A stretch of DNA of 64,000 nt from assembly GCA_951406725.2 (NCBI GenBank), contig OX597819.1, positions 8,060,001 through 8,124,000 of the forward strand, read 5' to 3'. Below, piece by piece: positions 35,100-53,175 of the stretch; position 1 is the first letter of the stretch, and each line of letters starts with the position of its first letter. Source of the stretch: Octopus vulgaris. Lineage: Eukaryota. The notes under the pieces are model-generated. The model was given only the letters and a program-made list of their open reading frames with translations, did no database searches and was not told the DNA's origin. The position numbers and the translations under genes are program-made.

Positions 35100-35191
35100 G
35101 CGGTACATATGTTTCGAGTTTTATAAAACAACTTATTCTTACATCAATGTATAATCGACATAACAGATAGTTTAAAGCCCTCTTCAGCCGC
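35100..35191 (-). ncRNA. Type I hammerhead ribozyme (PLE/retrozyme-type, palindromic stem III)
   Basis: Minus strand GCGG-CUGAAGA-GGGCUUUA...UAAAACUC-GAAA-CAUAUG-UA-CCGC: intact core, stem I GCGG/CCGC, stem II with one mismatch, palindrome ACAUAUGU, GUA cleavage triplet. Confidence 0.85.
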
Positions 35192-35489
35192 ATACAATTT
35201 CTACGCCAAAGACTTGTATCACATTATGAAAGGTCTGAGAAGGAACATTTGGTATTATTTATAACGGTAGGTAAACTGAGTATCACTGAGAAAGTATGTC
35301 TGTAAATCTTCATAATCAAATAGGTGTACAGGCTATTATTGGACTCCAGAAATCCGTCCATACCGTCCACACACGCACATATATATATATATATATATAT
35401 ATATATATATATATATATATATATATATATATATATATGTATGTATATATGTATGTATATGTATATGCATGTATATATATATGTATGTA

Positions 35490-35699
35490 TTATCAATTCA
35501 AAATGAACAATTAAATTACACCATCTAGAAAATTACAAATAATAGAAATATTAAAAATAAAATAACAATAGTATACCAATGATTAAGTAAATTGCAAAAT
35601 AATAATAAAAACGTATATTATTGTTATTTTATTTTTAATATTTTTATTATATGTAATTTTCTAGATGGTGTAATTTAATTGTTGATCTTGAATTGATAA
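35490..35699. repeat. Long inverted repeat (about 80 bp arms, about 46 bp spacer)
   Basis: 35490-35570 is the reverse complement of about 35617-35699 with roughly four mismatches. Confidence 0.9.
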
Positions 35700-37392
35700 A
35701 AGATGTTTTTTTCTAATTTTTATATATATATTATATTTTGTGAAATTTGATTTAGTATTTCTAAATTGAATTTTTCCCTGTAAGTTAGGAATAATATTCC
35801 CTCAAATAATAATTATTATATATATACACACACATATATATATATATATATATATATATATATATATATATATATATAAGCTCTTATAAGCTGAAATAAG
35901 CTCTTATATATATATATATATATATATATATATATATATATGTATGTATGTATATATATATATATATAGCAAGAGCTTATTTCAGCTTGGTCGACCCGGG
36001 ACTAAAGCAAAAGACACTTGTGCAAGGTACCATGTATTGGAACTGAACTCGGGAATCATGTGGATAAAGAAACGAACTTCTTACCACATAGCCGCGCCTG
36101 TCGTCATATATACCTATGTATCTATACATACGTGTGTGCGCACTTGCACGTGTTTGTACGTGCGTGTGTGTGTGCACGCGTGTGTGCACATGCATACTTA
36201 CACAAAGTGTATGTAAATATATATTGCTATATAGACCTTCGAAAATGTAAAAAGTACACGCATACAACTATCTGTGTGTGTGTGTGTGTGTGTGCATGTG
36301 AGTACGTATGAACGTATGGCAGAACATATGGTATCTAATTTATACATGAGTGACACGAAGTATAAAAATTAGCAATCAAGAAAATCAAATTGCAATTGTC
36401 CCAGACAAAGGGAAGCATTCCATATTATATTAATGTTTAAATGTGGTCTTACTTATTAAGCACAAAAGTTATGTGGTATTATTATTAATGATAATGACAA
36501 TTAGTAGCAAAACAATAAATTCTAGTTCTTTCGTAATCGATATTGACCCGAGATGTGAAAAGAAAAGATTTCTTATCGAATTTCTTGTCGCATCATAGAG
36601 CAAGTATAGTGATGAACTAATTGAATTGATACACACACACAAACACACACACAAACACACACACACACACACACACAAACACGCACGCACACACATACAC
36701 ACACACGTACGCACACGCGCACACACACACACACACATAGATACGCGCGCGCACGCATACACATTCACACATACACGCGCACACACGTGTGTGTGTGTGT
36801 GTATAGGCACGCAATGATAACAAGAGAGAGAAAGAGAGAGAGAGTGATAAAGGGACAGGAACAGTGAGAAAGTCGGGAATTATGAAGAAAATGGTAGGAA
36901 GAAGTAGATGATAGAAAGAGAGAGAGAGAGAGATAGAGAGAGAGAGTCAAAGAGGCATAGGGAGTGAGTTATGTATGTTGTTGTTAGGCTCGTAAACATG
37001 GATATGCGCACAAAAACGTGAATGTCTTCTTGAACACAAACGCACTAATTTCCAGTATGACACCCACACATTCATAGACGCATAAACACATATAAATGCA
37101 TAGGTGCGCATACGTAGATAGACAGCCAGCCAGCCAGACACACACACACACGCACACACACGCGCACACACGTTCATGCAAACACAGAGAGGCACGCGCG
37201 CATATTATGTTGGAATCTACCGTTGAGAGTGAAGTATTAGCGTTCAATTTCTTTGATAGACTCGAAGACAAACATATTGAATTATAGGTCCATCCATTTC
37301 AGTTATAGGTCTCAATGTGTTGTTACCATGTATATATATATATATATATATATATATATATATATATATATATATATATATATATATATATA

Positions 37393-37626
37393 TATATTGT
37401 TATATTTCGGAATGGTCATATTGCCAGTTTAGCCAATAAGAAAGAAAAGAAGAAAACAAAGGACCACTGATGCGGTCACAGGAGTGTGACGAAAGAACTC
37501 TGGCCGAAATAAGATTAAGATTAATGTAAAAAATAAATAACACTGAAGCAAAATAACACCAAATATATAGTGCGTGTGTTTTTATTGGCTAAACTGGCAA
37601 AATGACCATTCCGAAATATAACAATA
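37393..37626. repeat. 46-bp inverted repeat enclosing a hammerhead-like motif
   Basis: atattgttatatttcggaatggtcatattgccagtttagccaataa versus its reverse complement at 37581-37626 (1 mismatch); the same arm also occurs at about 31423-31467. Confidence 0.85.
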
Positions 37627-37959
37627 TCTGTTTCAACACACGACTTCACATAAAAAATCTTGCGCAACAAATATTTAAACGTATATATATATATACATAC
37701 ATAAATGAGGGCAAAGGAAAAAATTTCTAATGCCAAATATGCAGAAAAATTGGACATATTGTTCATTAACCATATAATTTTTTCACAATACGCACGCTAC
37801 TCGAAAAAAGGTCGATGGAAATTTCTAAAACATTCGACAGAAATTTAAATTTAACCGTTAAAGGTATTTTTTAATATGCTGGCCATTGATAAAATTTTTT
37901 TCGAAAAAGATTTTATCCTACATTAGATATATATATACATACATATATATATAAGGCTG

Positions 37960-38276
37960 ACACTCCGTCGCTTAGTATGACGATGGTACTAGTTGATCCG
38001 ATCAATGGAAGACCTTGCTCGTGAAATCAACGTGCAAGTCGCTGAGCTCTCCACAGCCATGCGCACCTTTCACATAATTCTCGGGGAGATTCAGCGTAAC
38101 ACAAAGTGTGACAAGGCTGGCGGTTTGAATTACAGGAACTACTCATTTTTGCCAGCTGAATGGACTGGAACAACATGAAATAAAGTGTCTTGCTCAAGGG
38201 CAAAACAGACCAGCGGGAATTGAACTCGTGACCTTATGATTGAGAGTCGAATACCCTAACCTCTTATCACGCGCCT
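37960..38276 (-). mobile_element. Diverged SINE family D
   Basis: Colinear with 50503-50824. Confidence 0.8.
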
Positions 38277-50824: not shown

Positions 50825-51359
50825 ACATATGCCAAACGACTATTCCGAAGACGGGATGAAAGCCAACTACATTCGTGAAAGTTAATTGTGAGCTGCCGAT
50901 CTTTTTCAACTGTTATACGTTGATCGAAAACAGATATGACTTAAATAGTGTATCAGATGAGCAGGATAGATGTACTTCGATTTACACACCAAACATTTTA
51001 TTTAATCGTTAGTCAAAATCTTCATTTTGCAAATTTATAGGTTTAAAATCACAAGAAGTCAATGTTTGGATCATATGCCGTGTAAATCTCCAAGTCTGAA
51101 AAAAGAGAGAAAGGATGAACAAGTGTGGCGTGAATAGAGTTTGTAGTGCATCCCACCCAGTCCCAGCGAATTACTCCTCAAGTAGCCTGGTATTTCAAGT
51201 AGCCTGGTATTTCTCATATCACTGATGCTGTTATATATTTATTGTGACCTCCTTAGTCACTATTCTCAGTCTACCGTTATTCACAATTTGCAATATGTAC
51301 GCATGGAATTAGATACAAGGCAGTAAATACTGTCCGTTGAAGATTATGTCACAGGTACC

Positions 51360-51591
51360 TATTTCTTTACTACCCACAAGGGGCTAAAAACAGAGAGGAC
51401 AAACAAGGACAGACAAACGGATTAAGTCGATTATATCGACCCCAGTGCGTAACTGGTACTTATTTAATCGACCCCGAAAGGATGAAAGGCAAAGTCGACC
51501 TTGGCGGAATTTGAACTCAGGACGTAACGGCAGACGAAATACTGCTAAGCATTTCGCCCGGCGTGCTAACGATTCTGCCAGCTCGCCACCT
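51360..51591 (-). mobile_element. SINE family C
   Basis: Family C match; TSD ttatgtcacaggtacc. Confidence 0.92.
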
Positions 51592-52071
51592 TATGTACCT
51601 TATGTCACAGGTACCTCGCCACGCGGAGTTTCTGTCATGCTCTCTCAACATATTGCATGCTGCGTGTAGAGCATGTGCATTAAATCGAACAACACGCTAG
51701 AATAAACAGCTAAGAACAATTTCTGCCTTTAGCTCGACGGTTGCAATACGATTCTCGTTAACTAATCCAAGTTATTGACCAATAGTCTTATCTAAGATTA
51801 GCGTACAAATGCATTTTATGCATCCAAATGTTTGAAAATGTGACTATTATATCCTAACCTACCTCAATGATCTGGTTGAGCCACTCCAATTTCTCTGAGT
51901 GAATTCAGAAAACATGTCGGATACTTGTTAGATTGTTAACATTGATTATATAGGTGTAAGAGGCTTTCACACTCTCCCCTACTACTGCCGATTCCTATAC
52001 AATCTCAACGTGAGTTAGAGATGGTATTTTCGTCCCCTAACTGAGCAACTCTATGGTGAGCTATACTCTCT

Positions 52072-52486
52072 CTCTTTTACTCTTTTACTTGTTTCAGTCA
52101 TTTGACTGCGGCCATGCTGGAGCACCGCCTTTAGTCGAGCAAATCGACCCCGGGACTTATTCTTTGTAAGCCCAGTACTTATTCTATCGGTCTCTTTTTT
52201 GCTGAACCGCTAGGTGACGGGGACGTAAACACACCAGCATTGGTTGTCAAGCTATGCTAGGGAGACAAACACAGACACACAAACACATACACACATACAT
52301 ATATATATATATACATATATGCGACAGGCTTCTTTCAGTTTCCGTCTACCAAATCCACTTTCAAGGCATTGGTCGGCCCGGGGCTATAGCAGAAGATACT
52401 TGCCCAAGATGCCACGCAGTGGGACTGGACCCGGAACCATGTGGTTGGTTAGCAAGCTACTTACCACACAGCCACTCCTGCGCCTA
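52072..52486 (-). mobile_element. SINE family B
   Basis: Full-length reverse-complement match. Confidence 0.92.
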
Positions 52487-53087
52487 TGAGGCAAATTTGG
52501 CAGCTATTTCACGTCAAGCCACACATTCAATGATATATGCTTGTGTGAGGATGTCTATGTATGTTGTGGACGTGTCTATGTATCTGGGTGTACGTATGTG
52601 TGTATGCGCGTCCGCGTTTCTCCCCGTGCGCGTGTGCATGCACACATATGAAAATAAGGAGGTCAGTTGGAATGATTTCTTTGCGTTTATCGTTCTGGCT
52701 CTCCACACTCTGATTTCGAATCCCGCCAGATCTAGGTTTGCATTTCAACCTTCGGAATGGAATCGCTAGCTTAAATCACCGGCCGCGTACCGCAGGCGAT
52801 TTCTTCTCTTTCTTCCAATTCTCTCTTTCTGTCTGTCACCCTTGACTTTATTAAGGACTTGAGAGCGGAAGGCAAAGCAACACATATAAAAACATGTCCT
52901 TACACGCACAGTTGCATACATACATACATGCATACATACATACATACATACATACATATATACATACATATATATATATATATATATATATATATACACT
53001 TGATAGTTGTGAGCACCTGTATATACCATTAGTGGTGTAGGTGATAGAGTATATTAATCAAAATAAAAACATGATTCAAAGGATTTA

Positions 53088-53175
53088 GCGGTACATATGT
53101 TTCGGGCCTTTATTAGACAGTTTTATAACAATGCATAATTGATGTAAATGTGTGTCTATGGCCTTCTTCAGCCGC
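53088..53175 (-). ncRNA. Type I hammerhead ribozyme, same family as 35100-35191
   Basis: Minus strand GCGG-CUGAAGA-AGGCCAUAGAC...GUCUAAUAAAGGCCC-GAAA-CAUAUG-UA-CCGC; core, stem I and stem III identical to the other copy; stem II is GGCC/GGCC plus UAGAC/GUCUA. Confidence 0.82.

What the first reader, a model, noticed from the sequence alone, without database searches (positions are those of the whole stretch)
35100..53175. Two intact orphan hammerhead ribozymes of one family: constant core, different stem II
Seen: copies at 35100-35191 and 53088-53175 share identical stem I, CUGAAGA, GAAA, palindromic ACAUAUGU and GUA site. Their stem II sequences differ yet both pair, and the downstream flank is only loosely similar (ATCCTTTG...GTTTTT). 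Neither has an adjacent RT ORF; both lie near (TA)n. Known: minimal type I hammerheads with palindromic stem III occur in PLE pLTRs and retrozymes and cleave best as dimers. Inference: a non-coding ribozyme-bearing mobile family or solo pLTRs with an unusually long stem II loop, possibly on the sense strand of a host intron.
Basis: partly seen in the sequence, partly recalled or inferred. Interest (0 to 1): 0.75.

Follow-up and report, generated by a model that had tools for sequence, protein, structure and literature searches.

The report
Truncated Penelope retrotransposon ends with hammerheads
The two ribozyme-shaped motifs are real but ordinary: each is the cut-short tail end of a protein-coding Penelope-type jumping gene with thousands of copies in this genome, likely pasted into (TA)n repeats, and whether these RNAs still cut themselves is untested.

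Summary
Both minus-strand hammerhead motifs are present as described, but they are not orphans. Their shared 16-mer has 2,695 exact genome hits (control 0), often as inverted pairs. Following these leads to complete elements: hammerhead repeat, one RT plus GIY-YIG-type ORF, long 3' UTR, hammerhead repeat. The ORF carries the motifs published for Hydra-clade Penelope-like elements. Copy 2 is 97-99% identical to the repeats of one such element; copy 1 belongs to an older sister subfamily tied to the same endonuclease at two loci. Both are 5'-truncated 3' ends (about 305 and 185 bp) flanked by (TA)n. 'Different stem II' is subfamily divergence of homologous sequence. 'Intact' is overstated: copy 1 has a rare stem II mismatch that disfavours the predicted fold, and most of its closest relatives lack the perfect palindrome. 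Core plus stem I is better conserved (26 of 27) than flanks (66-74%), but covariation did not beat shuffles. No host gene and no excess of 5' ends at the cut site were found. The one unusual trait is a 51-65 nt stem II insert. This scan reported similar truncated Penelope ends elsewhere in this genome.

The parts
35062..35366 (-). Copy 1: 5'-truncated 3' end of a PLE, subfamily B (about 175 nt of 3' UTR, hammerhead, short end without tail)
   Evidence: 92-96% identical to 40 scored relatives; 94% to L108 over 35059-35366, whose family UTR continues upstream; (TA)n starts 42 nt after the predicted cut
35100..35191 (-). Minimal type I hammerhead motif, copy 1: stem I 35191-35188/35103-35100, CUGAAGA 35187-35181, 65-nt stem II insert 35180-35116, GAAA 35115-35112, predicted cut 35104/35103
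   Evidence: sequence; hammerhead fold is 3.6 kcal/mol above the predicted minimum in this copy
34999..35065 (.). (TA)n at the 3' end of copy 1; it is also the tail of a neighbouring SINE-like repeat
   Evidence: repeat recognised by shared translation
35379..35490 (.). (TA)n-rich tract at the 5' truncation side of copy 1
52998..53182 (-). Copy 2: 5'-truncated 3' end of a PLE, subfamily C (7 nt upstream of the hammerhead, hammerhead, long end with most of the tail)
   Evidence: 97-99% identical to the three repeats of element L107; 93-98% to 40 scored relatives; (TA)n starts 95 nt after the predicted cut
53088..53175 (-). Minimal type I hammerhead motif, copy 2: stem I 53175-53172/53091-53088, CUGAAGA 53171-53165, 61-nt insert 53164-53104, GAAA 53103-53100, predicted cut 53092/53091
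   Evidence: sequence; the predicted minimum-energy fold is the hammerhead fold, helix III probability 0.25 as monomer
52915..52994 (.). (CATA)n/(TA)n at the 3' end of copy 2
53181..53270 (.). (TA)n at the 5' truncation side of copy 2

Best explanation
The two motifs are independent, 5'-truncated 3' ends of two subfamilies of one protein-coding Penelope-like retroelement family, most likely of the Hydra clade, and were likely made by target-primed reverse transcription into (TA)n. Shown: family membership, element architecture (repeat-ORF-UTR-repeat), microsatellite flanks, two preferred 3' ends, scattered 5' truncation, frequent inverted pairs. Inferred from published PLE work: the GIY-YIG endonuclease nicks AT-rich DNA; the RT starts at one of two internal sites about 40 or about 115 nt downstream of the hammerhead on uncut RNA and falls off early, leaving 185-305 bp stubs. 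Inferred: the hammerhead is kept by selection in the master elements, where two copies in one transcript could pair through the self-complementary helix III and cut slowly, perhaps with protein help. The solo window copies are most likely passive; copy 1 is probably impaired.
For: 2,695 exact 16-mer hits, control 0; of the first 100 listed, 25 neighbouring pairs within 6 kb are head-to-head against 1 and 1 in other orientations. L044: hammerhead at 88, ORF 358-2864 with one stop, second hammerhead at 4772. Uninterrupted 842-codon frames exist. L107 has inverted repeat, repeat, frameshifted ORF (73-87% aa identity to L044), repeat; copy 2 is 97-99% identical to its repeats. Copy-1 type ends lie downstream of the endonuclease at two loci, L108 and L154/L191. 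941 homologs among 7,991 scored candidates, with GLYRDD, DKT and CxCX5C conserved. A model of homolog P0008 (34% identical to the family ORF) hits telomerase RT first. (TA)4 within 160 nt downstream in 27 of 30 consecutive hits against 23-27% of random sites; ends at 26-52 or 109-136 nt. Matches PMC8557442 section 11, Fig. 2 legend passage and supplement S1/S2, PMC4209133 parts 1-2, PMC11167929 parts 1-2.
Against: No full-length element of copy 1's subfamily was found; at L108 a different stretch sits between endonuclease and repeat, and at L154 the UTR is internally deleted, so some B copies could come from non-autonomous masters. Pfam gave no RT hit and GIY-YIG in only 1 of 43 alignment members at E 0.012; PDB sequence searches found nothing. 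No tree with reference Hydra proteins was built. The unit (4.7 kb) is longer than the published '<3 kb'. Covariation in the hammerhead helices did not exceed shuffles (485 of 500 shuffles reached the observed pairing). True 5' truncations exactly at the predicted cut (5 of 10 hits) were no more frequent than at a control position 17 nt upstream (4 of 10 hits), so there is no genomic trace of cleavage.
Confidence: 0.93

Rival explanations
1. A non-coding, non-autonomous hammerhead family (retrozyme or SINE-like) that borrows PLE enzymes.
For: Most copies are short and far from any ORF; copy 1's subfamily showed endonuclease sequence nearby in only 2 of the 30 loci.
Against: 5' ends are scattered, not fixed; no tandem arrays at either window copy; copy 2's exact subfamily has an ORF-bearing element; upstream sequence of B copies continues as T-rich UTR like that of ORF-bearing copies.
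Confidence: 0.05
2. The two copies are co-opted intronic ribozymes that cut a host pre-mRNA, possibly pairing with each other through helix III.
For: Same strand, 18 kb apart, both carry ACAUAUGU, predicted homoduplex -7 kcal/mol.
Against: No host exon found: 44 selected window ORFs gave one Pfam hit, a retroelement domain; contigs laid on 42830-52900 covered almost only repeats. Copy 1 carries a destabilising change. At 0.96 hits per Mb some tens of 64-kb windows would hold two copies by chance (my arithmetic).
Confidence: 0.02

Closest known systems
Hydra-clade EN+ Penelope-like elements, e.g. Hydra-1_Obim of Octopus bimaculoides (Craig et al. 2021, PMC8557442; read: section 11, passages, supplement part 2 and passages)
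   Same: Single RT plus C-terminal GIY-YIG-type ORF; DKT, CxCX5C linker, CxxC and CxH, no CCHH; sense-strand hammerhead near the 3' end; (TA)n targets; 5' truncation, inverted copies, optional tail; position 10.1/11.1 often mismatched in File S2.
   Different: A different family from Hydra-1_Obim (its listed hammerhead has other stems and an 8-nt loop 2). Here RWA for RWK, unit about 4.7 kb with 1.9-kb UTR, 836-aa ORF with low-complexity inserts, stem II insert 51-65 nt (File S2 Hydra loops 3-10 nt), tail about 70-75 nt rather than 30-40.
[quoted passage not shown]
   Same: Short helix I (4 bp), 2-bp helix III with palindromic loop, mostly solitary copies attributed to truncated PLEs, some opposite-strand pairs 100-700 bp apart.
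   Different: Much longer stem II insert; G10.1-C11.1 kept only in subfamily B (G.U in E, A.C in A and C, A.A in D).
PAc, Poseidon of Anolis carolinensis (Frangieh et al. 2024, PMC11167929; read: parts 1-2 of 4)
   Same: Two 3' end classes downstream of the hammerhead; AT-rich targets; insertions run through the cut site, as expected if uncut RNA is the template.
   Different: Other clade; here the start codon lies about 195 nt after the cut site rather than inside the ribozyme; no biochemical data here.
Metazoan non-LTR retrozymes (PMC7229834, read: passages; bioRxiv 10.64898/2026.07.22.740005, read: part 1 of 5)
   Same: Type I hammerhead with weak helix III in a mobile repeat.
   Different: Retrozymes are non-coding tandem units of 150-450 bp with canonical hammerheads; these are dispersed truncated ends of a coding element.

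Membership tests
Hydra-clade PLE | Single ORF, telomerase-like RT with C-terminal GIY-YIG endonuclease | tested here: met
   842-codon frames; homolog model hits TERT first; GIY-YIG Pfam only weak or precomputed on P0001; VIY...YIG motif by eye
Hydra-clade PLE | RWK and DKT motifs | tested here: met
   DKT exact, RWK as RWA in this family and RWK/RWR in homologs
Hydra-clade PLE | CxCX5C linker; CxxC and CxH near the C-terminus; no CCHH in the endonuclease core | tested here: met
   CNCRCASEC, CQLC, CIH; no CxxC between VIY and YIG, read by eye against PMC8557442 section 11
Hydra-clade PLE | Sense-strand hammerhead near the 3' end, pLTR and inverted structures | tested here: met
   L044, L107; 25 head-to-head pairs among 100 hits
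Hydra-clade PLE | Insertion into (TA)n | tested here: met
   27 of 30 against 23-27% control
Hydra-clade PLE | Generally short (<3 kb) | tested here: not met
   4,684 nt between the two hammerheads of L044; a described tendency, not a strict criterion
Hydra-clade PLE | Phylogenetic placement among reference Hydra RTs | not tested
   Reference proteins were seen only in the paper's supplement and compared by eye
Minimal type I hammerhead | CUGAnGA, GAAA, UH cut site, closing helix I | tested here: met
   (helix I 97% of cells paired)
Minimal type I hammerhead | Self-complementary helix III for dimer folding | tested here: met
   ACAUAUGU duplex -7, ACAUGUGU (38 of 55 B copies) -6 kcal/mol
Minimal type I hammerhead | G10.1-C11.1 pair and stable helix II | tested here: inconclusive
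   Copy 1 has G-C but a weakened stem; copy 2 has A.C with a stable stem above it; covariation not above shuffles
Minimal type I hammerhead | Self-cleavage | not testable with these tools
   Only contigs, none on record as RNA; no excess of genomic 5' ends at the cut site
Non-LTR retrozyme | Tandem 150-450 bp units each with a hammerhead | tested here: not met
   No such array at either copy; neighbours genome-wide are inverted, not tandem
Non-LTR retrozyme | No protein-coding parent sequence | tested here: not met
Non-LTR retrozyme | Circular RNA | not testable with these tools
   no raw RNA reads offered

The most novel reading that the evidence does not exclude
This Hydra-clade family carries a hammerhead variant whose 51-65 nt structured stem II extension is a functional module, for example a docking site for the element's own protein or a dimerisation aid that gates cleavage; such long-insert ribozymes would escape Rfam and short-spacer descriptors, so PLE hammerheads would be undercounted. 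Inserts of all five subfamilies fold better than most base-shuffled controls (11-26 of 500 as good), but the most abundant subfamily has lost 10 nt of the distal hairpin.
Probability: 0.15. Interest if true: 0.5.

Novelty: new member of a known kind. Interest (0 to 1): 0.24.

Why it matters
Mainly for annotation: it defines an abundant, recently amplified Hydra-type PLE family in what is probably an octopus genome (inferred from 2.8 Gb size, Argonauta homologs and earlier scan notes) that Rfam and Pfam miss. Five subfamilies with a fixed core and drifting long stem II, plus intact ORFs, make a convenient natural series for asking what PLE hammerheads do. The two window copies themselves are most likely inert remnants.

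Tried and rejected
Rfam: no hammerhead family at gathering or E up to 10. Pfam and PDB sequence searches of the ORF: no RT hit. Protein atlas gave no answer. Runs: no RNA holder listed on record; contigs of four runs cover the element and end in (TA)n at L044:281 but cannot show strand, level or ends. Host exon search between the copies: only repeats covered, joints were between repeat copies; 10 kb of the 18 kb interval was laid. Cleavage footprint in DNA: 13 arms at 12 loci start within 2 nt of the cut among 26 hits of two patterns, but the matched single-position control gave 5 against 4: no enrichment; counts are small and only subfamily A was tested. Fixed 5' end for subfamily B (apparent at query position 212): rejected, the break is peculiar to L108. 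A 5-bp pairing of loop II over the cut site proposed by RNAalifold: 27 of 500 shuffles reach it and monomer probability is at most 0.09: not supported. DNA transposon with terminal inverted repeats: rejected, arms vary in length and enclose RT/endonuclease pieces. Literature searches found no paper describing this family or a long-stem-II PLE hammerhead; Repbase/Dfam and bioRxiv supplements could not be seen, so it may already be catalogued.
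Full report
Observation. On the minus strand, 35191-35100 and 53175-53088 both read GCGG CUGAAGA, an insert of 65 or 61 nt, then GAAA CAUAUG UA CCGC. The 16-mer occurs twice in the window and there is no third copy within 3 mismatches. Both copies have (TA)n tracts on both sides. Rfam finds no hammerhead here. Neither motif folds better than dinucleotide shuffles as a whole (z -0.36 and -0.18), although copy 2's minimum-energy fold is the hammerhead fold.

The family. 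The 16-mer has 1,365 + 1,330 exact hits in the 2.8-Gb genome, control 0. Full motifs with both exact halves: 1,734 of the AGGC type, 50 of the GGGC type with ACAUAUGU, 75 with ACAUGUGU. Among the first 100 listed hits, neighbours within 6 kb are head-to-head 25 times, and once each in the other two arrangements seen. Long pairs enclose RT and endonuclease ORF pieces. L044 shows the whole plan: hammerhead at 88, start codon at 358, ORF to 2864 with one stop, 1.9-kb UTR, second hammerhead at 4772, tail, microsatellite. A protein search scored 89 of 27,171 candidates and listed several uninterrupted 842-codon frames at 96-97% identity, so subfamily A amplified recently (inference).

Linking the window copies. 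Copy 2 (52998-53182) is 97-99% identical to the three repeats of L107, an element with inverted repeat, repeat, frameshifted ORF and 3' repeat. It starts 7 nt before the hammerhead and ends in the tail. Copy 1 (about 35062-35366) matches 40 scored relatives at 92-96%. Its subfamily lies downstream of the endonuclease at L108 and at L154/L191, with an unrelated stretch in between at the first and a deleted UTR at the second; no full-length B element was found. No family ORF lies in the window.

Protein. 941 homologs among 7,991 scored candidates, nearly all unnamed, with Argonauta and Solemya proteins among the best. An alignment of 41 of the 120 listed plus two family ORF pieces shows GLYRDD, DKT, MGSxD, CNCR-x-C and YIG. 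These fit the Hydra clade as defined in PMC8557442 section 11: RWK (RWA here), DKT, CxCX5C, CxxC, CxH, no CCHH, (TA)n targets. The supplement lists Hydra-1_Obim from an octopus with a different, short hammerhead, and shows that U.U or U.C at 10.1/11.1 is common in the clade. A confident model of homolog P0008 (pLDDT 85.5; 34% identical to the family ORF) has telomerase RTs as its top seven structural hits. Pfam and PDB sequence searches were blank or weak. No tree was built.

Insertion pattern. 27 of 30 consecutive hits have (TA)4 within 160 nt downstream of the cut against 23-27% of random sites, at 26-52 or 109-136 nt. Copy 1 is of the short class (42 nt), copy 2 of the long class (95 nt). 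This two-ended pattern is the PLE tail, which PMC11167929 traced to two internal RT start sites on uncut RNA. 5' ends are scattered.

The ribozyme. 161 distinct motifs were extracted from 241 profile hits in fetched loci (copies lacking either anchor dropped) and fell into five subfamilies, A 54, B 55, C 43, D 2, E 5, unplaced 2 (not a random sample). Between subfamily majorities, stem I plus cores are 94-100% identical, flanks 51-76%, loop 44-64%; for B against C 26 of 27 positions, p about 0.001-0.003, inflated by selecting on the core. The two stem II regions align. Changes mostly keep pairs by one-sided G.U/A-U steps, with one pair changed on both sides, and this does not beat the shuffle control. 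Helix III is weak in monomers (0.03-0.36) and self-complementary in both loop versions, which fits the dimer model and low activity reported in PMC4209133. Copy 1 differs from its closest relatives at two telling positions: a stem II mismatch shared by 2 of 55, which drops the stem II base to probability 0.01, and ACAUAUGU where 38 of 55 have ACAUGUGU. So 'intact' and 'identical palindrome' are partly accidents of this copy.

Tests that failed. No excess of 5' truncations at the cut site: 5 of 10 hits against 4 of 10 at a control position. No host exon. No RNA evidence either way. A loop II pairing over the cut site was not supported.

Verdict. Ordinary remnants of an apparently undescribed family of a known clade; four paper searches found no description, but repeat databases were not available. 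The long stem II insert (51-65 nt against loops of 3-10 nt for Hydra entries in File S2) is the only unusual trait. Earlier notes of this scan reached similar readings for other hammerheads in this genome; a sequence look-up found no note on this family.

Noticed in passing
window 11686-22366 and 22467-32815: Tandem duplication of about 10.8 kb (98.5% over 8,325 bp, 92.9% over 1,385 bp); a recent segmental duplication or an assembly haplotype artefact.
   Followed up: no
window 947-1570 (-): Remnant of a GIY-YIG-like endonuclease with CxxC inside the core (VVYRIQCNKCNKFYV), probably a different PLE clade (motif reading recalled); no Pfam hit, not hit by this family's ORF.
   Followed up: partly
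window 60851-62879 (-): LINE-type remnants, zf-RVT E 9.3e-6, just under the cutoff.
   Followed up: partly
window 58777-59604 (-): 276-aa open frame ending in a zinc-knuckle-like CHLCLEPGHIKRKC, resembling a retroelement ORF1 (recalled); no Pfam hit.
   Followed up: partly
window 5443-5827, 34073-34440, 40214-40604, 46771-47157, 47500-47883, 63421-63810: Six copies of a 385-bp repeat at 93-97% identity, a young SINE- or MITE-like family.
   Followed up: no
window 6062-6614: Three tandem copies of a 183-bp SINE-like unit.
   Followed up: no
window 34838-35065: Copy 1 sits in the (TA)n tail of an abundant SINE-like repeat.
   Followed up: partly
L044:88-165 and other subfamily A copies: The most abundant subfamily has a 10-nt deletion that removes one arm of the distal stem II hairpin, suggesting that hairpin is dispensable.
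   Followed up: partly
L222/L231 (G000:C8:110499738-110499807): A tiny palindromic insertion whose two arms both start at the predicted cut site, 6 nt apart; a single case.
   Followed up: no
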